Source: an uncultured Candidatus Saccharibacteria bacterium
GTDB lineage: Bacteria > Patescibacteriota > Saccharimonadia > Saccharimonadales > AWTP1-31
DNA length: 64,000 nt
Direction: 5' to 3'
NCBI GenBank assembly: GCA_964409615.1
Contig: CAYPDT010000001.1
Location: forward strand, 243,880 to 307,879
Positions 1 to 16,996 of this stretch are shown one piece after another. Within the stretch, counting starts at the first letter, position 1. The number at the start of each line of letters is the position of its first letter. A program made the position numbers and the translations under genes. The notes under the pieces are model-generated. The model made no database searches and was not told the DNA's origin. It saw only the letters and a list, made by a program, of their open reading frames with translations.

Positions 1-1
1 G

Positions 2-1531
2 CTAACCCGTAACTCTTCGGTGCTTGGAACTTCCGAGCTAGCTGCGCTGTACCACTTTCCTTACGGGGAGCATATGCAGTCAGAAGATATGGTTAAGTCA
101 GTGGCAAAAACACTGCCAGCCCCATTGTCTATGAAGAATCACGCTAATGCTGCCGACTACGATATTGTTCTAGGAACTAATAATCACCATGGTAGCCGCA
201 CCGCTATTGGCTTAACGGCCAAGGAACGAGAAAAGCATGTCTATCTCATTGGTGGTACTGGCAACGGCAAGACCACCATGCTGGAGTACGCGTTACTCCA
301 AGACATCAAGGCCGGTAAGGGCGTGGCTTTTATTGACCCCCATGGTGATGCTGCCCAAAAGCTTCTTAAGTACATCCCCGAGGAGCGCATTAAGGATGTG
401 GTCTACTTAAACCCTCGAGATATTAAGCACCCGATTGGCCTCAATCTCCTGGAGCTACCTGAGGGACTCGACGAAGATGAACTGCTGGTCGAACAGGAGC
501 GTGTGACTGAAGCGGTTGTGTCAGTACTACGGAAAGTCTTTGCCGATGATGATGCTAATGCCCACCGCATCGAAGGCATGCTCCGCAATACCATTAGGAC
601 GGCGTTTAGCACTGAAAACCCGACATTATTTACCTGTTTAGAGCTACTGCGTAACGGTGAGTTTCGCAATAAAGTGGTGGCAAAACTCACAGACGCACAC
701 CTAAAAGACTTCTGGCGAGAAGAGTTTGGTAAAGCTGGCGGCATGCAACGGGTAAGTATGACAAAAGGACTAACTCACCGCTTAGATCGTTTTGATGGTT
801 CGCAGTTCGTAAACCGTATGATGAGTCAAACGAAATCTACCATTAGCTTCGAGGATATTATTGACACTGGGAAGATCCTTATCTGTAACTTTAGTACTGA
901 CATGGGTGAAGATACCGCAACGTTGTTTGGTACAACTGTATTGGCTAAACTCAAGATTGCCGCCGAACGACGCCACAACCAGCCCGAAGCTCAGCGTAAG
1001 CCCTTTTACGTTTACGTAGATGAGTTCCAGAACTTTGCGACTACGCCGTTTGTGAAGATGCTGTCTGCTTCACGCAAATACAAGCTATTCTTAACCATTG
1101 CCGAACAATCTGCCGCTCAACAGGAAGAACAACGCTTAACGGAAGCGATCCTGGCCAACGTCAGTACAATTGTGTGCTTTGGATTGGGCAGCCCATTCGA
1201 TGAGCGGTTGTTGCTTGGCCGGTATGAACCTTGGCTTGAGAAAGGCAATTTACTCAACCAACCGGCTTACAACTTTTATCTACGAGTAAAGGCCGAGGAG
1301 CCAATGGAGCCGGTTTCCGGGGAGACTATAGTACTAGATAGTGCGGAAGGCAGTGAACGACGTGCTGAAGAGGTCATATCAGCCTCCAGAGAGAACTATG
1401 CGGTTGAATGGAAAAGTTATATGCCCAGCAGGGCAAAGGACGCCTCCAAACAACCCGACGTCAAAGTAGCTAACAGTAGGGAGGGTGCTGAGAAGAGTGT
1501 AGATTTTCAAGCTAGAGCGCTGGATGCTTAA
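2..1531 (+). CDS. Type IV secretion coupling-protein-like ATPase (TraG/TraD/VirD4 family), 5' end cut by window edge
   Basis: The reading frame is open from nt 2. Walker A is GGTGNGKTT and a Walker-B-like segment is FYVYVDEFQNF. Size and layout match conjugative coupling ATPases. Confidence 0.6.
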   Translation, partial: LTRNSSVLGTSELAALYHFPYGEHMQSEDMVKSVAKTLPAPLSMKNHANAADYDIVLGTNNHHGSRTAIGLTAKEREKHVYLIGGTGNGKTTMLEYALLQDIKAGKGVAFIDPHGDAAQKLLKYIPEERIKDVVYLNPRDIKHPIGLNLLELPEGLDEDELLVEQERVTEAVVSVLRKVFADDDANAHRIEGMLRNTIRTAFSTENPTLFTCLELLRNGEFRNKVVAKLTDAHLKDFWREEFGKAGGMQRVSMTKGLTHRLDRFDGSQFVNRMMSQTKSTISFEDIIDTGKILICNFSTDMGEDTATLFGTTVLAKLKIAAERRHNQPEAQRKPFYVYVDEFQNFATTPFVKMLSASRKYKLFLTIAEQSAAQQEEQRLTEAILANVSTIVCFGLGSPFDERLLLGRYEPWLEKGNLLNQPAYNFYLRVKAEEPMEPVSGETIVLDSAEGSERRAEEVISASRENYAVEWKSYMPSRAKDASKQPDVKVANSREGAEKSVDFQARALDA

Positions 1532-1600
1532 CAGTTTAATAGAGAATTGATAGCAACTAGATTATTCGGAAGTTACTAGTAACAGCTCGACCAAATTGTG

Positions 1601-3076
1601 CTAGTTCCGTTTAGCGGCGATAGAGTAGCCGATGGCAGACAAACCAAGTAGTGTGGCGATAACCACGCCAAGTAGAGATACTGAATTGATGCCGGTGTTT
1701 GGTGCGGCAGCATTAGTGCCAGCATTTGCATTGGTGGTTGTAGCTGAGCAGACAGCACCTTCGAATTGGTAGGCACCAACAGATGGACAAGAATTACGGG
1801 CTACACCACGAGCATCGGTAGATATGCCTAAGACCTGACCACCGGCGTTAATTGCCGGACTACCTGCCAATAAGGCCATGGTTGGTACAACACCACCATT
1901 GTCCTGCAGCGGGCCGAGAGTGCTGAAAAGATTGGCAAGATTTTGTTGGTCGCCGGGTTGGGTAAAGGTGGTACACGTACTATCGTCGGATAAATTATGG
2001 CCGTCGGAAATAATCCCGGTAGTAACCGTGCCTGTCAGGCCACCAAATGCCGCATTACCATTTAATTCAGCACAGTTGGACGATACATTATCGCTGATAT
2101 TATTGGTGAGCAGGCTATTTTCGACGTTCATAGTAACGGACGAGGTGTGCGGTGTCGCCGCTGCTCCACCGGTGAAGAAGGCCACTGAATTTTCACCAAT
2201 CGAACCAGTACTTCCGTCAAGTCCGACAACTGTTACGTTTTTTACAATCACACTGATGGTGGTATCACCGCTCAACGCCGCACCAATGCTTCCAAATCCT
2301 AGCGCTGCTGCAGAAGCAGTTATGTTATTAATAGTTGTATTGTAGACATTTGCATTTACCGTGCCGGTTCCGGCTATTAGGACAAAGAAGGCTCCGGCAT
2401 CGCCAGCAGAGTTATGTATATTTGCTACCGTAGTATTCTGTATATTGGCCGTAGGTGTAGAGGTATTAAAGGCATATACCCCACTAGTTGCCGCGGCGTC
2501 TAGATCATGAATATAGACGTTATTAGCTGTCGTGGTAACATTGGCCGCTGCGGAGTTGCCCAGTTCCACACCCTTTAATTGGTTCCCCGTTGGCAGGGCG
2601 TTAGTGCCATCTATTTCAATGTTTGATAGTGTCACACTGCCATTGGTGCTGATAATTCCTTGCCCAAGATAGCTGGCTATTTTCAAGTCCTGGACAGTAA
2701 CGACAGCCGTAGAACTGTTGATGCGAATTGTGCGATATTGCCCAGCATTTCCATCAATTGTCGTCTGGCTCATCCCAGCTCCCTGGATCTTGACCGACAC
2801 CGATATTGTCGGTGAATCTGCTGTTAACGTCTGCGTGCCTGCAGGTATGGTAATGGTGTCATTGGTTCCATAGCCGTCTGGTGAGACTGTAGCTGTGCAG
2901 CCGGATTGATTAGAACCGGCATTAACCGAGTCAATCGCGATTGGCAGGGTACAGCCACCGGTGACGTTAAGGGTTGCCGCATGCGCCCGACCGGAACCAG
3001 AAGCAAGCACCGCCAGGAAGGCGAATGTTGCGAGGATTAGTTTGTTTGTTTTTGTTAGATTCAGAATACTGATCAT
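1601..3076 (-). CDS. Sortase-anchored surface protein, beta-helix-like repeats, APNTG sorting signal (paralog 1)
   Basis: Signal peptide (..GSGRAHA/ATLNV) followed by a G/N/T-rich repeat core. The C-terminal module is GHNLSDDSTC..DARGVAR..GAYQFEG (choice-of-anchor-Q-like). It ends with APNTG, a hydrophobic helix and a KRN tail. Confidence 0.75.
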   Translation of the reverse strand: MISILNLTKTNKLILATFAFLAVLASGSGRAHAATLNVTGGCTLPIAIDSVNAGSNQSGCTATVSPDGYGTNDTITIPAGTQTLTADSPTISVSVKIQGAGMSQTTIDGNAGQYRTIRINSSTAVVTVQDLKIASYLGQGIISTNGSVTLSNIEIDGTNALPTGNQLKGVELGNSAAANVTTTANNVYIHDLDAAATSGVYAFNTSTPTANIQNTTVANIHNSAGDAGAFFVLIAGTGTVNANVYNTTINNITASAAALGFGSIGAALSGDTTISVIVKNVTVVGLDGSTGSIGENSVAFFTGGAAATPHTSSVTMNVENSLLTNNISDNVSSNCAELNGNAAFGGLTGTVTTGIISDGHNLSDDSTCTTFTQPGDQQNLANLFSTLGPLQDNGGVVPTMALLAGSPAINAGGQVLGISTDARGVARNSCPSVGAYQFEGAVCSATTTNANAGTNAAAPNTGINSVSLLGVVIATLLGLSAIGYSIAAKRN

Positions 3077-3114
3077 GGAGTAATTCCTTTATACATCGTT
3101 TTAGCTTTACCGGT

Positions 3115-3143
3115 ATTCTACCCCCCCCTGAGATACAAAGCAA
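3115..3143 (-). promoter_or_regulatory. Putative sigma70-type promoter TTGCTT-N17-TAGAAT with a G8 tract in the spacer
   Basis: Read on the minus strand, -35 is at 3138-3143 and -10 at 3115-3120. The spacer is 9 nt plus G8 (3121-3128 on the plus strand as C8). Confidence 0.45.
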
Positions 3144-3294
3144 GAAACTAGCTCTAAAGATCATCACTGAGTATCTCCGAGACATCTACGTGGCGTTGGC
3201 AGTCTTCGATACTCCGTCAAGCCAAGGTGATGGCGAGGATTCGCTCAAAGTCAGTCTGTGCTGCAGCCAAGTCTTCATCATAAGTTACCAATAA

Positions 3295-3981
3295 TCACGA
3301 CTGTGCTTCGGCGACAACTATCACTCGAGAATCGTAAGTTTTGCTGGCCTTGTCGAATCTACCAGTACAGGTTATCAAGTTAAGTTGCTTTGCAATGGTA
3401 TTGTGACGGACAAACAGCGCCGTATCGGCTTCTTTAGTAGTAACCCTCTGCACTTTCCTGATTTTGAACCTACGGACACTTTTATCACCGAAAGTTACGG
3501 TAAAGGCATCACCGGCTTTTAGCCTACCAAGGCTATAGAATATCCCTTTGGCGTACAGCCCATGTACATGCCCGTCAATAATACTGAGGCCAGCATCACC
3601 AGGCAAGGAGCCCTTGGTGTACCAGCCAGCCATATTAACATTACTAGGGACTACCATCTGGTTATCTTTGTCTACGCCTACTTGCTGAATAAAGCCTTCT
3701 GTTTTGATAGTTGGCAGCTGAATGGATAGTGGCTTATCTGCTGGGACACTGTAATTATCTGGTACTGGCTGTTCGCTGGGAGTGTCGGTGGATTCTGTTG
3801 CTACGGTGTGTCCAGTCGGTACACCGGCATGTTGAATGAAGTACCAGTTTCGTATTGCATTCAGGCCAACGCCAACAAGTAATATGCCTACTATGAATAA
3901 CGCAAAGCGAATATTTCGTTGATTCTTAGAGACTGCTCCACGCTTTGATAATCTATTGCTACGCTTCTTGTGCCGAACCAT
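3295..3981 (-). CDS. Sortase (class E/F-like transpeptidase)
   Basis: N-terminal basic segment plus one TM helix. Conserved His (IIDGHVHG), catalytic Cys motif LITCTG, and conserved Arg (SRVIVVA). Confidence 0.8.
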   Translation of the reverse strand: MVRHKKRSNRLSKRGAVSKNQRNIRFALFIVGILLVGVGLNAIRNWYFIQHAGVPTGHTVATESTDTPSEQPVPDNYSVPADKPLSIQLPTIKTEGFIQQVGVDKDNQMVVPSNVNMAGWYTKGSLPGDAGLSIIDGHVHGLYAKGIFYSLGRLKAGDAFTVTFGDKSVRRFKIRKVQRVTTKEADTALFVRHNTIAKQLNLITCTGRFDKASKTYDSRVIVVAEAQS

Positions 3982-3996
3982 AGGTACTAATATAGA

Positions 3997-5475
3997 CTAG
4001 CTCGAGCGTTGTTGCTTGCGGAATACGTATGTTAGTAGTCCAATGCCAAGCATGCTGGCAAGTACATTGAGTATTTGTGCTATAGATCCAACACCCGTGT
4101 TTGGAGCTCCTGCGTTACTACCGCCAGATGCAGATGGAGTAGAAGCACCGCAGACAGCACCTTCGAATTGGTAGGCACCTACAGATGAGCATTCATCTGG
4201 GCGTGCTACGCCACGGGCGTCAGTGGTGACACCTAGAACTTGTCCACCAGCAGCGATAGCTGGAGAACCTGGCAAAAGAGCTCGTGTTGGAACTGCTCCG
4301 CCGTTATTCTGGAGTGGACCGAGAGTGGATAGTATGTTGCTGACATTTTGCTGATCACCTGATTGGTTGAAGGATGAGCAGCTGTCATCGTCTGAAATGT
4401 TATGGCCGAACGATAGAAGTGATAGATTCACTGTGCCCGGGCTACTGAACGTCGTGAGTGTACAGTTGGCAGCTGAGCCCATATGCGTATTACCCGCTAA
4501 TAGCGCATTGCCAACTGACAACGTTACACTTGCAGTTCTCGCATTCCCCGCCATACCACCAACGAATAAGGCGCTACTAGTCTGGCCATACTGCCCTAGC
4601 GCGGCCCCCGCGACATTAGTTACTGTTATATTTTGGAGTACGGTACTGAATACTGAATCACTACTATTTGCTCCACCTACATTTGCGAATCCAATCGCTG
4701 TATGCGCAGCCTCTAGGTTATCGATCGTAGTATTTACAATGCGAGAATTGACGGTACCGACTCCCATTACAAGAAATCCAAATACATCTCCACCACTGTT
4801 CGTGAGATTTGAGATAGTGGTATTCGATATGTCTATGGTACTTGATAAGCCATCTTGCAATTGAGTCTGAATACCGTGGACTATCCCTGATGTTGATGCT
4901 AAGTCATGAATGTATAGGTTATTGGTAGTTATACTATTGTCAACACCTTGGCTGTTCCCTAGCCACAATCCCCAGAGGGGTCCGCTATCAGGCTGAGCTT
5001 CGCCACCATCCACCTCAATATTTTCGAGCGTGAGAGCCCCTCCGTCATTCCATATACCTGCCCCAAAAAACTCTACAATGGTCATACCCTTTAATCTGAT
5101 ATTATCATTCGGGCTTTCAATATTAAAAGGTGCGTACAGTCCACTATCACCACTGATTACGGTCTGTCCCATACCTGCCCCCTGGATAGTCACCGATTCG
5201 GTTATGGCAGGCAAATCTGCTGTCAACGTAATCGTCCCCGCAGGAATAGTAATTGTATCGTTCGTGCCGTACCCACTAGGAGATACCGCGGCCGTACAAC
5301 CAGATTGGTTGGCACCTGCATTCACCGAATTAATAGCAATAGGAAGCGTACATCCGCCCGTGACGTTAAGGGTCGCTGCATGCGCCCGACCCGAACCAAA
5401 GGCAAGCACTGCCAAGAAGACGAAAGCTGCCAGGACTAGTTTGTTTGTTTTTGTCAGGTTCAGAATATTGAGCAT
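3997..5475 (-). CDS. Sortase-anchored surface protein, beta-helix-like repeats, APNTG sorting signal (paralog 2)
   Basis: The N-terminal ~90 aa and C-terminal ~130 aa are near-identical to the 1601..3076 product, while the core is divergent. It ends with APNTG, a hydrophobic helix and an RKQQRSS tail. Confidence 0.75.
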   Translation of the reverse strand: MLNILNLTKTNKLVLAAFVFLAVLAFGSGRAHAATLNVTGGCTLPIAINSVNAGANQSGCTAAVSPSGYGTNDTITIPAGTITLTADLPAITESVTIQGAGMGQTVISGDSGLYAPFNIESPNDNIRLKGMTIVEFFGAGIWNDGGALTLENIEVDGGEAQPDSGPLWGLWLGNSQGVDNSITTNNLYIHDLASTSGIVHGIQTQLQDGLSSTIDISNTTISNLTNSGGDVFGFLVMGVGTVNSRIVNTTIDNLEAAHTAIGFANVGGANSSDSVFSTVLQNITVTNVAGAALGQYGQTSSALFVGGMAGNARTASVTLSVGNALLAGNTHMGSAANCTLTTFSSPGTVNLSLLSFGHNISDDDSCSSFNQSGDQQNVSNILSTLGPLQNNGGAVPTRALLPGSPAIAAGGQVLGVTTDARGVARPDECSSVGAYQFEGAVCGASTPSASGGSNAGAPNTGVGSIAQILNVLASMLGIGLLTYVFRKQQRSS

Positions 5476-5512
5476 TGAAGTAGTTCCTTATATTATTTAT
5501 AGCGTTACCGGT

Positions 5513-5542
5513 ATTGTACCCCCCCCCGAATATAGTGCGCAA
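5513..5542 (-). promoter_or_regulatory. Putative promoter TTGCGC-N18-TACAAT with a G9 tract in the spacer
   Basis: Read on the minus strand, -35 is at 5537-5542 and -10 at 5513-5518. The spacer is 9 nt plus G9 (5519-5527 on the plus strand as C9). Confidence 0.4.
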
Positions 5543-5634
5543 ATTTTTGTATAAAATCATGTCTCTTTCCCCTAGAAACAGACCAACCATTATTTGCTTT
5601 GCAAACACTGGTTACAAGATAAGGACTTCACATG

Positions 5635-6414
5635 CTAACGTTCTATAGTTAGAAACTCAAATTTTATAGTTACCCAGTTATTGTCTAGCTCTCGTTTAGT
5701 CAAGTTCTGTAATCTTCGCTCCAGTATTTTTGTTTCACAAGCTATAAGTACAACTGGAAAGTCGCGTTCGGTGACTTTCTGCCACTTTTCTGACTCCGCA
5801 TAGGTAATGTAGCGTCTGATGCTGTTCTTGATCCTCCAGTAGGGCGCACTGGCCTCATAGAAGCTCAGGAAATAGTCTGGGGCAATTAGTTGGAGCTTGT
5901 TCGTGCCTCCATTGTCAGTAATCTCTTCGTTCTTTTGTAGGTAGGCATCCGTAAGGTCTCTTGGGAGCTTGTACTTCAAGCTAGGCAGTTCAGTCTTGCT
6001 GAAGAACTGAAATTGCTTGGGGTAATTTTGTTTAATAAATACGTACGCCTTAAAGACGTTCAGTCTGTGTTGGATATGACCATCGTCTTTGTTCTTGTCG
6101 TAGTAGATTTGTTTGAGTGCGTTTGGATCTGCAAATGGTTGCTGTCTGAGTACCTGTATTCCTTTGGGAAGTAAGTGATAAGTAGCTGGTTTACCGATGA
6201 TCTTATAGCTTTTGTCATAGTTCTGACCAATATAGCCTTGATCTACTAATATCTTTAGTCTTGTTAGTATTACTCTGGTATGTTTAGCTCCCTGACTTGA
6301 GGCAATGATTTGAGCTGTTATATAGCGAAATTTATATAGTGTAGTGAGTAGTTGAAGTTGATGTGAGTTTATGGGTCGATGTTTAGTGTTGGTGGGTTGT
6401 GGTGTTGTGTTCAT
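5635..6414 (-). CDS. Hypothetical protein, possibly replication-relaxation family (winged-helix N-terminus)
   Basis: The N-terminal segment LQLLTTLYKFRYITAQIIASS..RLKILVDQGYI resembles a winged-helix DNA-binding domain. It lies between surface-protein genes and a recombinase. The family call is tentative. Confidence 0.35.
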   Translation of the reverse strand: MNTTPQPTNTKHRPINSHQLQLLTTLYKFRYITAQIIASSQGAKHTRVILTRLKILVDQGYIGQNYDKSYKIIGKPATYHLLPKGIQVLRQQPFADPNALKQIYYDKNKDDGHIQHRLNVFKAYVFIKQNYPKQFQFFSKTELPSLKYKLPRDLTDAYLQKNEEITDNGGTNKLQLIAPDYFLSFYEASAPYWRIKNSIRRYITYAESEKWQKVTERDFPVVLIACETKILERRLQNLTKRELDNNWVTIKFEFLTIER

Positions 6415-6601
6415 AGTAAGTTTTTATACGCCTATCTATGTTAATAGATATATAAGTAAAGATGCAAGCCATTAACTCCTTGAGATTTAACTCTTATATA
6501 TCCTATCGGCAGGATATCCACAGTTGTATTTAATACCTTGATAATATACTTGTAGGTATACTTATTAGTGGTATATACTAAGCTTATAAGTGGGGGTAGT
6601 C

Positions 6602-6769
6602 ATGATACAGACAGAACCAATACAACCCAGTCCAGAGGACACTTCCGAAGCGCCGTTATCAGATAACGAGCGCATCGATCTCATCGCTAACTTACTTTTA
6701 GATTACTTAGACGAAGAGCAGTCGGGAGAAAAGGGGTCATGCAAGACGACGCAAACAAAAATGCTGTAG
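6602..6769 (+). CDS. Small acidic ORF (55 aa) overlapping the recombinase start; doubtful
   Basis: ATG at 6602 preceded by GTGGGGG; product MIQTEPIQPSPEDTSEAPLSDNERIDLIANLLLDYLDEEQSGEKG.. It overlaps the recombinase start by 31 nt, is below the ORF-track size cut-off, and shows no recognisable motif. Confidence 0.2.
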   Translation: MIQTEPIQPSPEDTSEAPLSDNERIDLIANLLLDYLDEEQSGEKGSCKTTQTKML

Positions 6770-8454
6770 CTGCTATTCGTGTCTCGACCACCAAGCAGGG
6801 TACTGAGGGTGACTCACCTGAAGCTCAGAAAGAACAAATAGAGCGTTTTGCTTTAACCCGTGGCATCACCATAAAAAAGTTTTTCGTGTTTTTGGAATCC
6901 GCTAGTAAAGAACAACAACCGATGCAGGAAGCCATTGATTACTGCAAGAATCCCAAGAACGGGATCGAGCTGTTTATCATAAAATCGATCGATCGTTTTA
7001 CTCGCGGCGGATCGCTTTCGTACGACCTACTCAAAAACCAGCTGGAAGCAAATAGCGTGTCATTGGTAGACATTTACGGCGTGATTAGTTCTCGGCAGGT
7101 GAATACCCTAGAACACCTCGGTTTTGAATATAAGTGGAGTAAATACTCACCAAGTAAGAAGTCCGAGATATTAGAGGCTGAACGCTCCAAGGATGAGCTA
7201 AGAGACATTATGAGCCGTATGATTGGGGCTGAGATTCGCTATACCCAACTAGGTTTCTGGATGCGACAACCGCCGTTCGGTTTTGTCAGTGAAAAAGTCG
7301 AAACAAATAACGGCAAACGCTGCATCTTACGACCACACCCGACTGAAGCCCAATACATTACTAAGATTTTCGATCTTCGAGCCCGTGGCACTATGCGCGA
7401 TATGGAGATTGTTGAGGAAGTTAATAAACTTGGTTATCGAGGACGAGTGCAATATGTCCGAGATAAGAGTGATCGGTCTAAAGTTTTAAAGAAACGTGGA
7501 GGCGACCCCTTAACCCTCAAAGCCTTGGATCGTATTGTCTCTAATCCAATCTATGCTGGGATTAATGCCGAGAAATGGACTGACGGGAAACCAGTGCAGT
7601 GCGCTTTTGACGGGCTCGTATCTATCGACCAGTTTAACCGCGCGAACAAAGGTAAGAAGATCATCACCAAAGATGATCAAGGCGACATTTTCATCATCAA
7701 CAGAGCGCCAGAGCCACGCTACGCAGTCATCAAAGGCACTCGCAATCCTGATTTTCCATACCGCAAGTTTGTTCTGTGCCCAGAGTGCCATAGACCGCTA
7801 ATTGGCAGCGCATCGCGGGGTAAGTCCGGTAAACATTATCCAGCTTATCACTGTGATAAACGCGGCCATTATTTTCGTGTACCTAAAAAGGAACTGGAGG
7901 ATAGAGTGAATGAATTTATAAACGGTATTCGTGTCTCGCCGGAGCAGGTCGATAAAGTTTTGGCTGTTATTGAAGCCGAGTGGAAGAAGCGGGAACAGGC
8001 GCTCAAACAAGAGGTTGAGACGCTTGATAGCCACATACTGGGCTTACGTACCGAAATTGACATGACTGGAAGCAAGATTAAGCTCGTGAGCAACGAGACA
8101 GCAATTAAATACATAGAGGAGGACATTGTGCGTATAGAACAACAAATTAAAGAGCTGGAGGCTACGAAGATGAAGAAGATAAACCGTAAACCCATTAATT
8201 GGCAGGGTCTGAAAGCTAGGGTTCGCTACCTGGCGGAACACTTTGATGAGCTACTACTACAACAGATTGATCCGGTCAAAAAAGCTCAATTTTTTGCTGC
8301 ATTATTCAATAAATTTCCAACATTTGAAGATCTAGCCAGCGGAACACCCGGCAAGCCAAACTTTACAGGGGTGAATCCAATATTTTCTCTTGCTAAATTA
8401 CCTACTACCCATTTGGTGACCTCACGGGGAATCGAACCCCGATTGCCGGGATGA
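6739..8454 (+). CDS. Large serine recombinase
   Basis: N-terminal resolvase domain with the catalytic Ser context AAIRVSTTKQ. A recombinase domain follows, then a Cys/His zinc-ribbon (CPECHRPL..YHCDKRGH) and a C-terminal coiled coil. The last ~14 codons are antisense to tRNA-Glu. Confidence 0.9.
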   Translation: MQDDANKNAVAAIRVSTTKQGTEGDSPEAQKEQIERFALTRGITIKKFFVFLESASKEQQPMQEAIDYCKNPKNGIELFIIKSIDRFTRGGSLSYDLLKNQLEANSVSLVDIYGVISSRQVNTLEHLGFEYKWSKYSPSKKSEILEAERSKDELRDIMSRMIGAEIRYTQLGFWMRQPPFGFVSEKVETNNGKRCILRPHPTEAQYITKIFDLRARGTMRDMEIVEEVNKLGYRGRVQYVRDKSDRSKVLKKRGGDPLTLKALDRIVSNPIYAGINAEKWTDGKPVQCAFDGLVSIDQFNRANKGKKIITKDDQGDIFIINRAPEPRYAVIKGTRNPDFPYRKFVLCPECHRPLIGSASRGKSGKHYPAYHCDKRGHYFRVPKKELEDRVNEFINGIRVSPEQVDKVLAVIEAEWKKREQALKQEVETLDSHILGLRTEIDMTGSKIKLVSNETAIKYIEEDIVRIEQQIKELEATKMKKINRKPINWQGLKARVRYLAEHFDELLLQQIDPVKKAQFFAALFNKFPTFEDLASGTPGKPNFTGVNPIFSLAKLPTTHLVTSRGIEPRLPG

Positions 8455-8488
8455 AAACCCGATTTCCTAACCGTTAGAAGATGAGGCC
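8414..8488 (-). tRNA. tRNA-Glu (anticodon TTC), CCA encoded
   Basis: Manual cloverleaf: acceptor GGCCTCA/TGAGGTC, D arm TTCT/GGAA, anticodon stem TCGGG/CCCGG with loop TTTTCAT, T arm CGGGG-TTCGATT-CCCCG, then ACCA. Confidence 0.85.
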
Positions 8489-8591
8489 TTCTTATGTCAT
8501 GACCAGTCTTTGTACCCTGGCTTAGATGACAAATAAAGGAACCTGAAGATTATAACATAACAGAGACAGAATTGAAATAGACTACCAATTT

Positions 8592-9563
8592 TTAGCGCGT
8601 ACTGCGCAGTTTATAAGCGCGACGTGCATAGTGCAAAACCCCAAATACATATCCTACCGAAACCAACGCCCAGTAGACAACCGAAAACCGAGCTTGAAAC
8701 AATTCAACACTAAAAAACACAGCGGCAGCAAGGTAAGTCACGCTAAACCATGCGAACTGTTTTAGGTAATGACTTGTCTTAGTGGCATTACTCACACTAT
8801 ATAGTCGCTGAAGCTCAGTTATTTGTTCGGAGTTAAAAGCTGGCGCTGGGTGCGTTTTATCGAGTACTTCTCGCATCAAGATATGGGCAGCATTTATCAG
8901 AGTTTTGGTTGAGGCACTATATTCCAATTGTGCAGCACCACTTCTGAAATAAAGAAAAATACTGTTCCCGCTAAATTCAACGTCGATCATGGTTGGAAAA
9001 TCTATTAAGCTACGCATAACATCTGGGGTTAAGATGGTAAGTACTGCTTGCTCAGTACCTCGTGAGCACAAAACATCAAAGTAGCTATGAAAATCACCCT
9101 CTAACAAGTACTGGCTTGGAATAGCCACCATGTCGTCAAGCGTGTCTTCGATGAGAGTGTCATTTGCCTTCCGGTTCAGAACTATCCTTGGGAATTCTCG
9201 CGTTGTAATTAGCCGCAATACGCGTGTCCTATTTGCAACACCATTTGTTTCGCTAATTACTAACATATCTGCTCGCAAGGTCGTACCAGGCAGAAAGCCT
9301 TTGATAGCCTCACTGACTCCACGACTTGTGCCCATGGCAATGTTTTTAAGAGCCGCAGGTGGCCGATGATGATAATAACCCAGCTCCCAACCAGCCTGAG
9401 TTGCCCATTGAACGTATGGTTGATTATTGGAATTCGCCGTGTCAGCTGCCGGATTGGCCACTTTCGTCATAGCAGGTGATGAAGGAGTGATATTTGCGGA
9501 AGGGTTAGAATTGTTTGCAGGATTTTTTTGTGGTTCCATTACAGACAATATACCACTCGTCAT
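8592..9563 (-). CDS. Hypothetical membrane protein
   Basis: Long ORF with a low-complexity N-terminus and C-terminal hydrophobic helices (FAWFSVTYLAAAVFF.., VVYWALVSVGYVFGVL). Confidence 0.5.
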   Translation of the reverse strand: MTSGILSVMEPQKNPANNSNPSANITPSSPAMTKVANPAADTANSNNQPYVQWATQAGWELGYYHHRPPAALKNIAMGTSRGVSEAIKGFLPGTTLRADMLVISETNGVANRTRVLRLITTREFPRIVLNRKANDTLIEDTLDDMVAIPSQYLLEGDFHSYFDVLCSRGTEQAVLTILTPDVMRSLIDFPTMIDVEFSGNSIFLYFRSGAAQLEYSASTKTLINAAHILMREVLDKTHPAPAFNSEQITELQRLYSVSNATKTSHYLKQFAWFSVTYLAAAVFFSVELFQARFSVVYWALVSVGYVFGVLHYARRAYKLRSTR

Positions 9564-9701
9564 TTCAAAGCAATGTAAAGCTTCAGCTTAAATTCAGCTT
9601 TATCTGTGATTCATCTGTAAGTTATCCACAAGCGGTATTGACTTTGTGTAAAAAACGCGAGATACTTCACTCGATTAACATAAAAATAAGGAAAAAGTTC
9701 G

Positions 9702-11522
9702 ATGGCTCTACCTAGAACACAAACAAAACCCAAATCAATACAAAAACAAAAGTCCTTCAAAGACTTTTTTAACACTGGTAAAAAGAAAGCTATCGCCCTT
9801 GGTGGTGTTTTGGTCATCGCAGCAATAGGTGCGTACCTAATGTTCTTTGTTGGTGCCGCACCAAACAACTGTTCTGCAGTTGATGGTGGTGGCATATGTG
9901 ATGTCAACCAAGCTTCAAGCCCTGATGGAGCTGATGCCGTAGCATCTACAACCGACGAAGTACAAAATCTGAGCCGTAATGCTGGCTGGACCGACTGGGG
10001 AGTGCCCTTCCGAGCACCTAACTTCCCGCAAAATGGTGCATTACCTGTATGGCGCTTTTATCGTAACGACATTACCGCTCACTTCCTAGTTATCGAAGGT
10101 AGCGCCGAATATAACACGATGGTAGCTGACCCAGCGAATGCTCGAGAAGGCATTGCCTTTTACGCATGGCCAGATGGTCGTCAGCCCGGCACCACACCAA
10201 TTCACCGTATTAATCGCAAGCCATTATGGTTCTTGCAGATGTACACCGACAACCAGAATGTTGTTAACCAATTCGTTGCTAACCCAGATGGTTCTTGGCA
10301 AGATGGTGGTGTAAACTTCTGGGCTTACCCATCAACCTACTTCCCTCCAGTTCCTGCCTCAACACCAACCAAAGATACTGACTGTGCTAACCAGAATCTA
10401 ACTCCTGGCGATAAGGGTGCCTGCGTACAATGGCACAAGGGTGTGCTCAATGGCTACGTTGTATACAACGGTAATCAAGCACCACAGCTCGATGTCAACA
10501 ATAATGACTTCGATTCAACCACCAACGACTACACTCGTCTGTTTGTAAAATCACTACAGTCTAAGGGTGTCAAAGCACCAGACTATAGCAATGTTCTAAC
10601 CAAAGAAATTTGGGAGGCATTTGCTGCCGGATATCCTGCAGCTCCAGTCACCCGACCTAACCCAACAACTCCTGGTGTGCCTAACGTTCCAAGTACTCCT
10701 CAGCCAAAAGACCCAGGTAAGACCGATACACTTCCTTCTGGACCAACTCAGCCAGTAGGTACCGACAACAAACCTCCACAGCCAAGTCAACCAATCGCCG
10801 GGCCAGATAGCGGTGTTGGATGTACTACTGCAAACGCTGGCGAGGCACTAACCCATAAAGGACGCAATGCTGCTGGGGAACAATATAGCAAAGCATGTAT
10901 AACAACACTCCAGGTTTGGGCAGGTCTACGTGGTGCGGATGCAGACGGCATCTGGGGACCAAAGACAGAATTCGCTATTACTGCAAAATTAAAGCAGAAC
11001 CAACCGCGGAATCCAGGGGCAATTCCAAACCGTAACCCTGATAATCGAAGTACGCAAAGTAACGATAGCAAAAACCCACAACCTTCAACTCCTGCACCAC
11101 GCCCAGACCCAGACACTCGAAGCCCACAAAATGCACCAACCGGGCGACTCGGTAACGGCACAAAACAACATTTAAACATATACGTTGACGCCAGCGATAA
11201 AGTTGTTTCCAACAGCGGATCATGGACACGACACTACATCTGCGATGTCTACGTTAACGACAAAGTATGGAAATATGCTCGAGATGACAGCGGTAAAGAT
11301 TTAACTAGCTCATTCCTCAAAGTCAAACAAGGCACCGGACGATTCGCCGCAACCAAGACGAATCCAGGCAACGATCGTACTTCGTGTACTTACACTAGTC
11401 GATTCAAGAACGCCAGAACCAATGCATGGATAATGTCAACTACTGACCGCGGTGTTGGCACCGACGGTGAAGGTGATGGCCTCGTCAACCGAGTAACTAA
11501 GAAGACTCGCGTTAACGACTAG
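9702..11522 (+). CDS. Secreted/anchored protein with peptidoglycan-binding-like segments and Pro-rich linkers
   Basis: N-terminal TM or signal anchor. Two PG-binding-like stretches (GDKGACVQWHKGVLNGY; ITTLQVWAGLRGADADGIWGPKTEFAI) and long P/T/Q-rich linkers. Confidence 0.55.
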   Translation: MALPRTQTKPKSIQKQKSFKDFFNTGKKKAIALGGVLVIAAIGAYLMFFVGAAPNNCSAVDGGGICDVNQASSPDGADAVASTTDEVQNLSRNAGWTDWGVPFRAPNFPQNGALPVWRFYRNDITAHFLVIEGSAEYNTMVADPANAREGIAFYAWPDGRQPGTTPIHRINRKPLWFLQMYTDNQNVVNQFVANPDGSWQDGGVNFWAYPSTYFPPVPASTPTKDTDCANQNLTPGDKGACVQWHKGVLNGYVVYNGNQAPQLDVNNNDFDSTTNDYTRLFVKSLQSKGVKAPDYSNVLTKEIWEAFAAGYPAAPVTRPNPTTPGVPNVPSTPQPKDPGKTDTLPSGPTQPVGTDNKPPQPSQPIAGPDSGVGCTTANAGEALTHKGRNAAGEQYSKACITTLQVWAGLRGADADGIWGPKTEFAITAKLKQNQPRNPGAIPNRNPDNRSTQSNDSKNPQPSTPAPRPDPDTRSPQNAPTGRLGNGTKQHLNIYVDASDKVVSNSGSWTRHYICDVYVNDKVWKYARDDSGKDLTSSFLKVKQGTGRFAATKTNPGNDRTSCTYTSRFKNARTNAWIMSTTDRGVGTDGEGDGLVNRVTKKTRVND

Positions 11523-11550
11523 ACACTGCCTGCCACTCAAAAGCACAAAT

Positions 11551-11578
11551 AGAAACACCCTCGCAAGAGGGTGTTTCT
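11551..11578. terminator. Hairpin between convergent genes (bidirectional terminator candidate)
   Basis: AGAAACACCCTC-GCAA-GAGGGTGTTTCT, a perfect 12-bp stem, lying between the 9702..11522 (+) and 11577..13091 (-) ORFs. Confidence 0.6.
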
Positions 11579-13091: not shown

Positions 13092-13167
13092 GCATTACAC
13101 CCTCTTATTCTTAGCTATTATGCGCCAAGCTACCTCAACATGCCAGCGTTTGACTGTGGATTTACAG

Positions 13168-13199
13168 CAAAAAAATACTCTGCAGCATGTGCAGAGTAT
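13168..13199 (-). terminator. Intrinsic terminator (minus strand)
   Basis: Perfect 10-bp stem ATACTCTGCA/TGCAGAGTAT with a 5-nt loop, followed on the minus strand by T7 (plus-strand A7 at 13169-13175). Confidence 0.65.
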
Positions 13200-13317
13200 A
13201 AAGATTGAGCGGTCAGTCACGAACAACTCGTTAGCCTAAGCATACCACAACGTAACCATTTTGACCAGCCTGAAATTATCTGACAAAACACCCTCGCTAG
13301 AATGCGCTACAAAAGCT

Positions 13318-13347
13318 AAGGGCTCCTACCTTGCGGTAAGAGCCCTT
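13318..13347 (-). terminator. Hairpin terminator just downstream of the LPNTG protein gene
   Basis: AAGGGCTC..GAGCCCTT stem 20 nt past the stop at 13368, with T-rich sequence on both sides. Confidence 0.5.
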
Positions 13348-13367
13348 TTTGTCACAGCCAGGATTTC

Positions 13368-15620: not shown

Positions 15621-15648
15621 AGTTATGTCCTAATTACCTTTCGTTACC

Positions 15649-16782: not shown

Positions 16783-16996
16783 AATTCTCCCATTTGGGCG
16801 TATTGCCCTTACTCCATCTACCCCGTAGGGGCAGACCACCTTGTAATGCGTTCTACTTTACCACAAGCATATGCTTATGTCAATACTTTTCAACATGTAT
16901 TCACCATAAACACAAGCGTTTTAAAGAATAACACCGTACCGGTCAAAGCCTACCACACCTTACAGAGGTAAAACTGTGAAATATCTTATAAAATAA

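What the first reader, a model, noticed from the sequence alone, without database searches (positions are those of the whole stretch)
1..8488. Integrative element whose serine-recombinase ORF terminates inside tRNA-Glu
The large serine recombinase gene (6739..8454, +) overlaps the 3' half of a minus-strand tRNA-Glu (8414..8488) by 41 nt. Its last ~14 codons (..HLVTSRGIEPRLPG) are therefore antisense tRNA sequence.

This is the geometry expected when an element integrates into a tRNA 3' end and re-supplies it. It also means the recombinase C-terminus would differ between the integrated and excised forms.

To the left lie a replication-relaxation-like gene, a sortase with two surface proteins, and a TraG/VirD4-like coupling ATPase that runs off the window. 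Together these suggest an ICE/IME-type element carrying adhesin-like cargo.
Basis: partly seen in the sequence, partly recalled or inferred. Interest (0 to 1): 0.7.

Follow-up and report, generated by a model that had tools for sequence, protein, structure and literature searches.

The report
Saccharibacteria mobile element rewriting its recombinase
The window holds the right-hand ~8.4 kb of a ~10.7-kb mobile element of a Saccharibacteria (TM7) genome, inserted by a large serine recombinase into the last six bases of tRNA-Glu at a crossover site lying inside the recombinase's own gene, so each insertion or excision swaps the enzyme's C-terminal tail.

Summary
A 571-aa large serine recombinase (LSR) ORF (6739..8454, +) ends 41 nt inside a minus-strand tRNA-Glu(UUC) (8414..8488). 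Its TGA stop is the complement of tRNA positions 35-37.

- In 62 of 80 related loci from Saccharibacteria/Patescibacteria MAGs, the homologous recombinase also ends inside a tRNA: Glu 50, Gln 8, Leu 2, Arg 1, Lys 1.
- Recombinases 96-97% identical sit in five different species, each with a host-specific tRNA tail.
- A 99%-identical strain carries a second 10-kb element between this one and the tRNA.
- Five complete relatives and one left-end proxy show the other junction: host terminator, then TGGTGA, then an orphaned 28-43-aa native tail whose stop overlaps a nuclease gene's ATG.

So attP lies inside the recombinase ORF, and the common core is TGGTGA (tRNA 3' UCACCA).

The element carries a VirD4-type coupling protein, a MobC-like relaxase candidate, a sortase and two sortase-substrate surface proteins, but no mating-pore genes. 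It is therefore best called an integrative mobilizable element.

I found no published description. Whether the tail swap regulates anything is untested. The left end lies outside the window, and I found neither an empty site nor a circular form.

The parts
1..1531 (+). C-terminal ~510 aa of a VirD4/TraG-type coupling protein (T4CP); the gene runs off the left end of the window
   Evidence: Pfam hits above threshold: TrwB_AAD_bind, TraG-D_C and T4SS-DNA_transf. The frame is open from base 2. Full-length relatives are 881-889 aa.
1601..3076 (-). Secreted surface protein 1 (491 aa), a predicted sortase substrate
   Evidence: N-terminal signal-like segment, and a C-terminal APNTG motif followed by a hydrophobic stretch and KRN. 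No Pfam hit. This region varies in copy number and sequence between related elements.
3295..3981 (-). Sortase
   Evidence: Pfam Sortase, E=6.9e-18.
3997..5475 (-). Secreted surface protein 2 (492 aa), a paralogue of protein 1 and a predicted sortase substrate
   Evidence: C-terminal APNTG motif, hydrophobic stretch and basic tail. The 5' parts of the two paralogues are about 76% identical at the nucleotide level.
5635..6414 (-). Replic_Relax (PF13814) protein, a candidate MobC-type relaxase, transcribed divergently from the recombinase
   Evidence: Pfam 30.1 bits against a cut-off of 25.3. PF13814 is equated with the MobC relaxase superfamily in PMC5357655. A homologue lies next to the recombinase, divergently oriented, in 47 of 62 loci with enough upstream sequence.
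6590..6769 (+). Conserved small ORF (about 40-60 aa; start codon uncertain) that abuts or overlaps the recombinase start; function unknown, possibly an accessory or directionality factor
   Evidence: Found in 41 of the 43 loci examined (not in L042 or L073), with the motif ..ER(I/L)xL(I/L)AxL(I/L)L(D/E)...EE. No Pfam family.
6739..8454 (+). Large serine recombinase, 571 aa in this integrated form; residues 562-571 (SRGIEPRLPG) are encoded antisense to the tRNA
   Evidence: R14-V15-S16 is invariant across 120 homologues.
8414..8419 (.). Common core TGGTGA (complement of tRNA nt 71-76, UCACCA); the crossover lies inside it. This is the attR junction: P arm to the left, tRNA body to the right
   Evidence: L007 diverges from the window after 8421. 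In L049, attR reads TGGTGA|TC (host, pairing with tRNA base 3) while attL reads TGGTGA|CC (element).
8414..8488 (-). tRNA-Glu(UUC), intact with encoded CCA but separated from its terminator
   Evidence: The other minus-strand tRNAs in the window (Gly, Pro) are followed by hairpins; this one is followed by antisense recombinase sequence. Reconstructed attB sites place a terminator hairpin directly after CCA.
8452..8454 (+). Recombinase stop codon TGA, supplied by the tRNA anticodon loop (complement of U35 C36 A37)
   Evidence: Read directly from the sequence. It explains the uniform 570-572-aa length of the tRNA-Glu-fused homologues.
8489..13091 (.). Host flank, not part of the element: a 315-aa DUF3137-like protein, a 606-aa DUF5648 protein and a 504-aa CN_hydrolase-family (Lnt-like) protein
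   Evidence: 99.2% identical to the flank in the JGI strain that carries the extra element. Weak synteny with other species to the right of the tRNA, none to the left.

Best explanation
**What it is**
Window 1..8419 is the right-hand part of an integrative mobilizable element of a Saccharibacteria chromosome. Total length is about 10.7 kb. By homology, the left end lies about 2.3 kb beyond the window start.

**How integration works**
- The element is inserted by its own large serine recombinase into the 3' end of tRNA-Glu.
- The element's attachment site (attP) lies inside the recombinase ORF. The crossover falls within TGGTGA, which spans codons L559-V560-T561 and is the complement of the tRNA's terminal UCACCA.
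- Integration regenerates the tRNA exactly.
- Integration replaces the enzyme's native tail of about 28-43 aa with about 10 residues read antisense from the tRNA acceptor and T arms (SRGIEPRLPG). The protein stops at a TGA supplied by the anticodon loop.

**What ends up at the other junction (attL)**
- The tRNA's former terminator, then the orphaned tail-coding segment, then a nuclease gene (PLD-like or Mrr-like) whose ATG overlaps or closely follows the tail's stop codon.
- After that come a 69-76-aa gene and an oppositely oriented Xre-type HTH gene.

**Layout of the family**
- Shown: a conserved backbone of [tail-nuclease-small protein-HTH] ... cargo ... [MobC-like Replic_Relax | small ORF-recombinase].
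- In the window copy the cargo is a VirD4-type coupling protein, a sortase and two sortase-substrate surface proteins.

**Inferred**
- The tRNA-side half-site plus the core carries most of the target specificity, because the terminator-side arms are not conserved. This would let new elements insert next to the tRNA beside residents, producing tandem arrays.
- The element transfers by using its relaxase candidate and coupling protein together with a mating pore encoded elsewhere, for example the chromosomal Patescibacteria T4SS.
- Circularisation restores a recombinase-nuclease-small protein operon and the full-length enzyme. Tail and operon state would then report whether the element is integrated or free.
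For: **The recombinase**
- It is a large serine recombinase.
- The fusion with a tRNA 3' end recurs in 62 of 80 GTDB loci and in about 102 of the 120 closest protein clusters.

**Mobility**
- Recombinases 96-97% identical occur in five species, with host-specific tRNA tails and unrelated flanks.
- The same host flank (99.2% identical, tRNA 100%) occurs with and without a 10.1-kb copper-resistance element between element A and the tRNA.
- A 100%-identical recombinase is found in two junction states, L130 and L131.
- Two copies can occur in one MAG or one contig.

**attL sites**
- Found in five complete elements (L049, L081, L087, L034, L032) and in the 92-93%-identical proxy L092.
- In four of the six (L049, L034, L087, L092) I read a terminator hairpin just upstream of TGGTGA; all six have TGGTGA, an intact orphan tail and a nuclease gene.

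**Extent of the core**
-.

**Native tails**
- The tail stop overlaps or lies within about 40 nt of the nuclease ATG in 13 of 13 P' arms.
- pN is below pS in 12 of 12 pairwise comparisons.

**Backbone and cargo**
- Backbone proteins are homologous between elements.
- PF13814 corresponds to MobC.
- Coupling-protein domains are present.
- The literature reports 5,713 VirD4 homologues in Patescibacteria, only 148 of them near virB4, and few relaxases (PMC12102498).
Against: - The left end of this particular copy is outside the window. It is inferred from L092 and L003 (92-97% nucleotide identity), not observed.
- No empty attB and no unambiguous circular junction was found. Every native-tail junction examined is consistent with a tandem array.
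- AlphaFold gives the crossover region and native tail (residues 550-590) pLDDT below 50. There is no structural support for a tail function.
- The Replic_Relax hit is weak (30 bits). No oriT was identified, and no mating-pore genes lie in the element or in the ten large ORFs of the window that I scanned.
- Serine integrases normally recombine only attP with attB. Tandem arrays require action on hybrid sites, which is unproven here.
Confidence: 0.88

Rival explanations
1. The element and its integration are real, but the tail swap and the split of the recombinase-nuclease operon are neutral side effects of where attP happens to lie. Under this view the recombinase works equally well with either tail, and directionality is set by a separate factor.
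For: - AlphaFold predicts residues 550-590 as disordered, with pLDDT below 50.
- tRNA-derived tails differ freely between hosts: SRGIEPRLPG, SPGIEPGLPG, SRRIELLFPG, and long read-throughs in tRNA-Gln.
- The first ~8 tail codons must also serve as the P' DNA half-site, which alone would conserve them (sequences).
- A conserved small ORF upstream of the recombinase could be a conventional directionality factor.
Against: - Native tails stay open in 13 of 13 P' arms, including the six orphan attL copies.
- pN is below pS in 12 of 12 pairs.
- An amphipathic pattern ending in acidic residues (e.g. W-N-x-x-L...L-E-x-I-D...E-E) extends 40-90 nt beyond the core. That is further than a typical serine-integrase half-site (my own knowledge: about 25 bp).
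- The stop/ATG overlap with the nuclease gene is conserved across tail types.
- In phage Mx8 the analogous swap changes integrase behaviour (PMC6070905).
Confidence: 0.45
2. The element is a self-transmissible ICE with a minimal, unconventional transfer apparatus: a coupling ATPase, a relaxase-like protein and sortase-anchored adhesins for cell contact. It would need no separate mating pore.
For: - Coupling protein, Replic_Relax, sortase and two PNTG-motif proteins are clustered between the att ends.
- A TraG homologue lies within 10 kb upstream of the recombinase in 19 of 45 loci.
- Most Patescibacteria T4CP genes are far from virB4 (PMC12102498).
Against: - No VirB4, VirB6 or other channel component lies in the ~10.7 kb.
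- Many family members, such as element B in L007 and L049, lack the coupling protein altogether yet keep the same integration backbone.
- A sortase homologue was found upstream in only 1 of 45 loci.
Confidence: 0.12
3. The arrangement is ancestral and fixed. A domesticated recombinase gene has always sat next to tRNA-Glu in Saccharibacteria, and the overlap has nothing to do with mobility.
For: - The same recombinase-into-tRNA-Glu geometry recurs in distant relatives at 52-66% identity.
- The right-hand flank shows some synteny between species.
Against: - A second element is present or absent at this exact site in a 99.2%-identical host background.
- Near-identical recombinases occur in five species, while the flanking DNA outside the element is unrelated.
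- Family members use five different tRNA targets.
- Cargo varies between elements.
- Orphan tails lie at defined left ends.
- Multiple copies occur per genome.
- Only 121 confirmed loci were found among 185,579 species genomes, although that search used just two peptide patterns.
Confidence: 0.03
4. The element is a prophage or phage remnant integrated by a phage serine integrase.
For: Large serine integrases are best known from temperate phages. An Xre-type HTH repressor-like gene lies in the left-end module.
Against: - No capsid, terminase, tail or lysis genes occur in any of the complete 8.7-11.1-kb elements.
- Instead they carry a relaxase candidate, a coupling protein and cargo such as copper resistance, a reverse transcriptase or adhesins.
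Confidence: 0.02

Closest known systems
Myxococcus phage Mx8 integrase IntP/IntX (tyrosine recombinase)
   Same: attP lies inside the integrase coding sequence. Integration creates a recombinant gene with a new 3' end, so the prophage-encoded enzyme has a different C-terminus with altered properties (PMC6070905). The target is a tRNA gene region (my own knowledge: tRNA-Asp).
   Different: Mx8 Int is a tyrosine recombinase from a phage. Here the enzyme is a large serine recombinase from a non-phage mobilizable element. The shared core is only 6 bp, and the trait is conserved across a whole family using at least five tRNA targets.
SSV1-type 'suicidal' integrases of archaeal viruses and plasmids
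   Same: The recombination site lies within the integrase's own gene, and the target is a tRNA gene (PMC8371274).
   Different: Those are tyrosine recombinases whose gene is split into two inactive parts. That review describes the trait as exclusive to archaea. Here only the last 5-7% of the ORF is exchanged, and all catalytic and DNA-binding domains remain in one ORF.
Large serine integrases of phages and ICEs (Bxb1, phiC31, SPbeta SprA, TP901-1, Tn5397 TndX)
   Same: Same fold and domain order: catalytic domain, recombinase domain, zinc ribbon and coiled coil. Very short att identity.
   Different: - Known members have attP outside the int ORF and mostly target protein-coding genes.
- Use of t(m)RNA genes by S-Ints was called previously unreported in 2020, with only 14 of 297 predicted cases (PMC7192596).
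- This family has only about 15% identity to solved structures, an extra helical bundle (residues 488-532) and a swappable tail.
Integrative mobilizable elements (IMEs) of streptococci
   Same: Small integrated elements encoding their own integration module plus a relaxase (including PF13814/MobC) and often their own coupling protein, and relying on another element's mating pore. Tandem accretion at att sites is also seen (PMC5357655).
   Different: The host phylum is different (Patescibacteria). The integrase family and target are different. The streptococcal coupling proteins are mostly TcpA-type, whereas this one is VirD4-type.
Integration-dependent immunity of mycobacteriophages, and Tn916 transcription across the circular joint (my own knowledge, not checked here)
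   Same: The integration state changes a gene product's C-terminus, or changes which genes a promoter reaches.
   Different: In those systems the affected gene is a repressor (mycobacteriophages) or the transfer operon (Tn916), and the recombinases are tyrosine-type. Here the affected units are the recombinase itself and a nuclease + small-protein operon, and the effect on expression is only inferred.

Membership tests
Large serine recombinase (serine integrase) | N-terminal resolvase-type catalytic domain with the nucleophilic serine | tested here: met
   Pfam Resolvase E=4.5e-9, 37 bits against a cut-off of 23.3. R14-V15-S16 and Q20 are invariant in 120 homologues. Weak sequence hit to the TP901-1 catalytic domain.
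Large serine recombinase (serine integrase) | C-terminal recombinase domain, zinc ribbon and embedded coiled coil | tested here: met
   Pfam Recombinase (19.7 bits vs 21.1) and Zn_ribbon_recom (17.9 vs 25.3) are below threshold in the window protein but are precomputed hits in many homologues. The AlphaFold model shows these domains and two long helices at 401-482. Foldseek aligns 565-574 columns to SPbeta integrase (E 1e-17) and 502 columns to Bxb1 (E 7e-13).
Large serine recombinase (serine integrase) | Short att sites sharing little more than a central crossover dinucleotide | tested here: met
   Reconstructed attP and attB share only TGGTGA in the five complete elements, and 12 nt in the window/L092 proxy pair. 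The exact dinucleotide cannot be determined from sequence.
Large serine recombinase (serine integrase) | Directionality controlled by a separate recombination directionality factor | not testable with these tools
   The candidates are the small ORF at 6590..6769 and the 69-76-aa left-end protein. Neither has a Pfam family.
Integrative genetic element (attL + attR + int) | Two recombinant junctions flanking the element, with an integrase inside | tested here: inconclusive
   attR and int are in the window. attL lies outside it and is inferred at about -2264 from L092. Both junctions are seen in five complete relatives.
Integrative genetic element (attL + attR + int) | An uninterrupted attB in a related genome | tested here: not met
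   No empty site was found among the 135 loci fetched or in contigs carrying the flank proteins. The nearest substitute is the presence/absence of element B at the same site in a 99.2%-identical flank.
Integrative mobilizable element (IME) | Own relaxase and/or coupling protein, without a mating-pore (T4SS) gene set | tested here: met
   Replic_Relax/MobC-like hit at 30.1 bits against 25.3. T4CP domains are above threshold. No VirB4-like or other channel genes lie between the att ends in the window, L092, L081 or L087.
Integrative and conjugative element (ICE) | A complete conjugation apparatus, including a VirB4-type ATPase, encoded by the element | tested here: not met
   None in the ~10.7 kb. 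None among ten large ORFs in the rest of the window.
Mx8-type attP-within-int system | attP inside the int ORF, so that integration rewrites the 3' end of int | tested here: met
Mx8-type attP-within-int system | Tyrosine recombinase of a temperate phage | tested here: not met
   The enzyme is a serine recombinase and there are no phage genes. It works like Mx8 but is not a member of that family.
SSV-type suicidal integrase | Integration splits int into non-functional parts | tested here: not met
   All domains stay in one 571-aa ORF. Only residues after 561 are exchanged.

The most novel reading that the evidence does not exclude
The recombination reaction rewrites its own enzyme as a built-in state switch.

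- The free, circular element would encode a full-length integrase with a conserved amphipathic, acidic tail. This gene would be translationally coupled to a nuclease and a small protein.
- The integrated element would encode a tRNA-tailed integrase, uncoupled from those genes.
- The two enzyme forms, and/or the coupled genes, would have different directionality: integration-proficient versus excision-competent or excision-locked. The tail would then act as a cis-encoded directionality determinant for a serine integrase.
- Separately, because the enzyme appears to read mainly the conserved tRNA 3' half-site, the family could offer programmable, broad-host integration tools for otherwise intractable CPR bacteria.
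Probability: 0.2. Interest if true: 0.85.

Novelty: new variant of a known kind. Interest (0 to 1): 0.72.

Why it matters
1. **A serine-integrase family that targets tRNA genes.** It is large (more than 1,600 protein clusters) and systematically targets tRNA 3' ends. That target class was thought to belong almost entirely to tyrosine integrases. S-Int use of tRNA genes was called unreported and awaiting proof in 2020 (PMC7192596).
2. **attP inside the recombinase gene.** This was previously documented, to my knowledge and in the papers I read, only for tyrosine recombinases (Mx8, SSV-type). It sets up a simple experiment on whether a serine integrase's directionality can be encoded by its own rearranged 3' end.
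3. **A defined family of mobile elements for Saccharibacteria/Patescibacteria.**
   - It may explain the thousands of 'orphan' VirD4 coupling-protein genes and the scarce, mostly MobC, relaxases noted in the 2025 survey of Patescibacteria T4SS (PMC12102498).
   - It makes the open question of whether that T4SS conjugates DNA directly testable.
4. **Practical uses and cautions.**
   - A 6-bp-core, tRNA-Glu-specific integrase native to TM7 is an obvious candidate for a genetic tool.
   - The cargo (variable sortase-anchored surface proteins, copper resistance, a reverse transcriptase) suggests these elements move traits for host attachment, stress and possibly defence between epibionts.
   - Assemblies often break at or near these junctions: 9 of 80 GTDB contigs end there, and seven short-read contigs (six end inside the tRNA, one starts at the core) do too. 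MAG-based surveys therefore probably undercount the elements.

Tried and rejected
**Exact-protein look-ups**
- The window recombinase and the 323-aa form of the flank ORF returned nothing. The source NCBI contig seems not to be in the position index, and the flank gene is called 8 codons shorter.

**Search for the left end of this exact copy**
- L004 is 100% identical to the window but extends only 1,094 bp to its left.
- L003 stops inside the nuclease gene.
- L133 starts about at the att core.
- Only the 92-93%-identical L092 crosses attL.

**Search for an empty attB**
- Six of the eight contigs carrying the flank protein (five Logan, one ENA) stop inside or just past the tRNA; the two JGI contigs run on into element B's recombinase. 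L134, which carries an 81% homologue, also stops inside the tRNA.
- A more distant homologue (P0243) lies in a different gene neighbourhood.
- The left flanks of five complete elements match no other fetched locus.

**Search for a circular form**
- Every native-tail junction with enough sequence is a tandem array: L007/L122, L047, and L080 together with L014 of the same MAG.
- L130 versus L131 is undecided, because no attL lies within 10 kb.

**G2:U71 wobble**
- I first considered this wobble in the tRNA a possible scar of element-supplied sequence.
- I rejected that idea: it is present in all 50 tRNA-Glu genes while pair 3:70 covaries, and it is normal for bacterial tRNA-Glu (my own knowledge).

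**An apparent 98% match**
- The match of element B's recombinase 3' end to window 8221..8413 is an alignment extension out of the host flank. One search gives 69% for that stretch.

**Other dead ends**
- Dyad symmetry of the att sites is weak, at most 12 of 24 positions, and does not fix the crossover dinucleotide.
- Sequence searches of the PDB found only the TP901-1 catalytic domain and generic coiled coils.
- Eight literature searches found no description of these elements.

Full report
**1. The observation**

ARAGORN places a tRNA-Glu (anticodon ttc) at 8414..8488 on the minus strand. Rfam's tRNA model confirms it at 56 bits. The ORF 6739..8454 (+) is 571 aa long, so the overlap is 41 nt.

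From the sequence itself:
- The tRNA gene encodes its CCA end (8414-8416, TGG on the plus strand).
- The ORF reads L559 V560 T561 across the acceptor end, then SRGIEPRLPG across the acceptor and T arms.
- The ORF stops at TGA (8452-8454), which is the complement of tRNA positions A37-C36-U35.

The protein is a large serine recombinase (LSR):
- Pfam Resolvase E=4.5e-9, with Recombinase and Zn_ribbon_recom just under threshold.
- R14-V15-S16 is invariant in 120 homologues.
- An AlphaFold model built from a 120-sequence alignment has mean pLDDT 79.9. It shows the catalytic domain, the recombinase domain, the zinc ribbon, a long coiled coil (401-482) and an extra helical bundle (488-532).
- The best structural matches are full-length SPbeta and Bxb1 integrases, E 1e-17 to 7e-13.

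- A VirD4/TraG-type ATPase that runs off the window.
- Two paralogous secreted proteins ending in APNTG + hydrophobic segment + basic residues.
- A sortase and a Replic_Relax protein.

**2. The organism and the family**

The recombinase has more than 1,600 homologue clusters at E<=1e-10. The named ones come from Candidatus Saccharibacteria.

A scan of one genome per GTDB species found 121 confirmed loci. I kept 80. Nearly all are from Saccharibacteria/Patescibacteria MAGs.

In 62 of those 80 the recombinase C-terminus is fused to a minus-strand tRNA:

| tRNA target | Loci |
|---|---|
| Glu(UUC) | 37 |
| Glu(CUC) | 13 |
| Gln | 8 |
| Leu(UAA) | 2 |
| Arg(CCU) | 1 |
| Lys(CUU) | 1 |

Of the other 18 loci, nine contigs end at the junction, eight show no tRNA there and one had no C-terminal match. 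About 102 of the 120 closest protein clusters carry tRNA-antisense tails. The overlap is therefore a defining trait of the family, not an accident of this locus.

**3. Evidence that the element is mobile**

(a) *Recent transfer between species.* Loci L012-L016 carry recombinases 96-97% identical to the window's, in five different GTDB species.
- They sit next to tRNA-Glu UUC or CUC genes whose T arms differ. The tails read SRGIEPRFPG, SRGIEPLLPG, SPGIEPGLPG and SRRIELLFPG.
- The element DNA is 88-90% identical to the window. The DNA beyond the tRNA is unrelated, or 78% identical over one gene.

(b) *Polymorphism within one species.* JGI contig Ga0490049_000515 (22,035 bp; L007 plus L122) has the same host flank as the window.
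- The flank is 99.2% identical over 5 kb, the tRNA is 100% identical, and the 315-aa and 606-aa proteins are identical.
- Between element A and the tRNA this contig carries a second, 10.1-kb element B with these genes: Mrr-like nuclease, 69-aa protein, HTH, copper P-type ATPase, DUF305, CsoR, rhodanese, Crp, a short-chain dehydrogenase, its own Replic_Relax-like protein and its own recombinase (62% identical).
- Element B's recombinase ends ...DMVTSRGIEPRLPG* inside the tRNA.
- Element A's recombinase (P0002, 99% identical to the window's) diverges from the window exactly after TGGTGACC (window 8421). It continues as HVDQTWNQILTGLERIDAIMEESLESEDE*.

(c) *One recombinase in two junction states.* L130 and L131 are 100% identical over 4,025 nt up to ...ATGGTGACCTC. 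One then continues into tRNA-Glu, the other into a native tail plus an Mrr-like gene.

(d) *Multiple copies.* Several MAGs, and even single contigs, hold two copies.

**4. The other junction and the crossover**

I scanned for the core sequence followed by an in-frame tail. This found attL sites in five complete elements:

| Locus | attL position | Element length |
|---|---|---|
| L049 | 3005 | 8.7 kb |
| L081 | 530 | 11.1 kb |
| L087 | 1167 | 10.5 kb |
| L034 | 290 | about 11.4 kb |
| L032 | 975 | 9.1 kb |

It also found attL in L092 (position 608), whose coupling protein is 96% identical to the L002 relative's and whose DNA is 92-93% identical to window 3..3288.

Each of the six attL sites has TGGTGA, then an open tail ORF of 28-43 codons not preceded by a recombinase, then a nuclease gene. 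In four of them (L049, L034, L087, L092) I read a host terminator-like hairpin just upstream of the core. In L081 the upstream arm looks like a recombinase remnant instead, and I did not examine L032's arm for a hairpin.

Joining the left arm of attL to the right arm of attR rebuilds a normal tRNA-Glu gene followed immediately by the attL left arm, which carries the terminator hairpin where one was identified. Joining the other two arms rebuilds an uninterrupted, longer recombinase ORF.

The core can be delimited in L049. The host tRNA has T at position 3 pairing with A at position 70.
- attR reads TGGTGA|TC (host sequence).
- attL reads TGGTGA|CC (element sequence).
- The exchange therefore lies within TGGTGA, which corresponds to tRNA nucleotides 71-76.

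The G2:U71 wobble is native to these tRNAs. Mapping L092 onto the window puts this copy's attL at about -2264, giving an element of about 10.7 kb. This is an inference, not an observation.

**5. Backbone, cargo and arrays**

The left-end module (tail, PLD-like or Mrr-like nuclease, 69-76-aa protein, oppositely oriented Xre HTH) is homologous between elements. So is the right-end module (Replic_Relax-like protein divergent from a small ORF plus the recombinase).
- A Replic_Relax homologue adjoins the recombinase in 47 of 62 loci.
- A coupling protein lies within 10 kb upstream in 19 of 45 loci.

The middle of the element varies:
- Coupling protein, sortase and surface proteins (window, L092, L081, L087).
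- Copper resistance (element B).
- A TerC-like protein, a reverse transcriptase and a pilin-like protein (L049).

Native-tail recombinases turned out to be junctions of tandem arrays: L007/L122, L047, and L080 together with L014 from the same MAG.

The terminator-side arms of the reconstructed attB sites share no sequence, whereas the tRNA-side arm is conserved. From this I infer that the enzyme relies mainly on the tRNA half-site and the core. That would explain both the wide host range and insertion next to resident elements.

**6. Possible consequences of the geometry (inferred unless stated otherwise)**

Shown:
- Integration shortens the enzyme from about 590-602 aa to 571 aa.
- The native tails remain open in 13 of 13 P' arms, and their stop codon overlaps (ATGTTTAA/ATGTTTAG) or lies within about 40 nt of the nuclease ATG.
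- pN is below pS in 12 of 12 tail comparisons.
- The tRNA loses its terminator, so its 3' trailer is now antisense to the recombinase.

Inferred:
- The circular form expresses a recombinase-nuclease-small protein operon that integration splits.
- The tail and/or those genes may bias the direction of recombination, as reported for the analogous Mx8 IntP/IntX swap (PMC6070905).

Against a structural role: AlphaFold gives the tail pLDDT below 50. I put roughly even odds on the swap being functionally neutral.

**7. Mode of transfer**

PF13814 (Replic_Relax) corresponds to the MobC relaxase superfamily (PMC5357655). Together with a VirD4-type coupling protein and no mating-pore genes, the element fits the definition of an IME.

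A 2025 survey found 5,713 VirD4 homologues in Patescibacteria. Only 148 lay near virB4, and relaxases were few and mostly MobC. The authors left open whether the phylum's T4SS conjugates DNA (PMC12102498). That paper does not mention recombinases, integrases or tRNA. This element family offers a concrete mobile substrate for testing the question.

**8. Comparison with known systems, and novelty**

| System | Same | Different |
|---|---|---|
| Mx8 IntP/IntX | attP inside int; integration gives a new C-terminus | Tyrosine recombinase of a phage |
| SSV-type suicidal integrases | att site within int | Tyrosine recombinases; the gene is destroyed; described as exclusive to archaea (PMC8371274) |
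| Known LSRs | Same fold and domain order | attP lies outside int; tRNA genes are rarely targeted |

Mageeney et al. (PMC7192596) wrote that S-Int use of t(m)RNA genes had not been reported and needed proof.

Eight literature searches found no description of this family. The library is incomplete, so prior mention elsewhere cannot be excluded.

I rate the finding a new variant of a known kind: an LSR-driven integrative mobilizable element with an unusual target class and an attP embedded in its own recombinase gene.

**9. Limits**
- The left end of this copy is outside the window.
- No empty site and no circular junction were found.
- Relaxase function, transfer, directionality and any regulatory role of the tail are untested.
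- The count of 121 loci comes from two peptide patterns and is a lower bound.

Noticed in passing
window 6590..6769 (+); same position in 41 of the 43 related loci examined: A conserved small ORF of 40-60 aa directly upstream of, and often overlapping, the recombinase start. It has a basic N-terminus (MGRxKGSxNK in many) and the motif ER(I/L)xL(I/L)AxL(I/L)L(D/E)..EE. It has no Pfam family. It could be an accessory or directionality factor.
   Followed up: partly
L007+L122 (JGI Ga0490049_000515), positions about 6840..16950 of the rebuilt contig: A 10.1-kb sister element (B) carrying a copper P-type ATPase, DUF305, CsoR, rhodanese, Crp and a short-chain dehydrogenase. It sits between element A and tRNA-Glu in a strain whose host flank is 99.2% identical to the window.
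   Followed up: yes
window 3305..8421 compared with the JGI contig: Identity between the two copies of element A is mosaic. Blocks of 99.5-100% (3705-5304, 7305-7704) alternate with blocks of 80-92%. This suggests recombination between related elements, in contrast to the uniform 99.2% of the host flank.
   Followed up: partly
L034 87..107: A 21-nt fragment of the tRNA-Glu 3' end (TGGTGATCTCACCGGGAATTG) lies about 200 nt to the left of that element's attL. It is probably a relic of an earlier integration or a decayed neighbouring element.
   Followed up: no
L081 505..529: The 'host' arm immediately left of this attL reads TTGGCAGATGAGTCTCTTA, which would encode LADESL. This resembles the recombinase C-terminus (..LEKSLMV). 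It may be the remnant of an older, deleted upstream element rather than original host sequence.
   Followed up: no
L120/L121/L124-L127/L129/L134 ends; L133 start; L012 and L014 starts: Short-read contigs repeatedly end inside the tRNA, and L133 starts about at the att core; in addition, 9 of 80 GTDB contigs end at the junction. L012 and L014 start just upstream of or inside the recombinase module. These elements are therefore probably fragmented and under-counted in MAGs.
   Followed up: partly
L049 4186..8890: The cargo of this 8.7-kb family member includes a reverse transcriptase (RVT_1, E=2e-24), a DUF475/TerC membrane protein, a weak methyltransferase hit and a type-IV-pilin-like protein with an N-methylation motif. 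It may be defence or surface cargo.
   Followed up: partly
protein P0090 (Candidatus Saccharibacteria bacterium RAAC3_TM7_1): A 572-aa member of this recombinase family in a published TM7 genome is named 'NUDIX hydrolase' by its source. This looks like a mis-annotation.
   Followed up: no
non-Glu loci: L059, L066, L071, L072, L088 (Gln); L021, L023 (Leu); L070 (Arg); L074 (Lys): Where the family targets other tRNAs, the recombinase's own last codons change to match that tRNA's 3' end (e.g. ..LAG.. for tRNA-Gln CCAGCCA). The only bases common to all targets are TGG, the complement of CCA. The crossover may therefore lie in or next to the encoded CCA.
   Followed up: no
window 13368..15620 (-) and 40400..42265 (+): The host region contains a 750-aa DUF11/PKD-domain surface protein and a chromosomal E1-E2 P-type ATPase. 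Neither is connected to the element.
   Followed up: no
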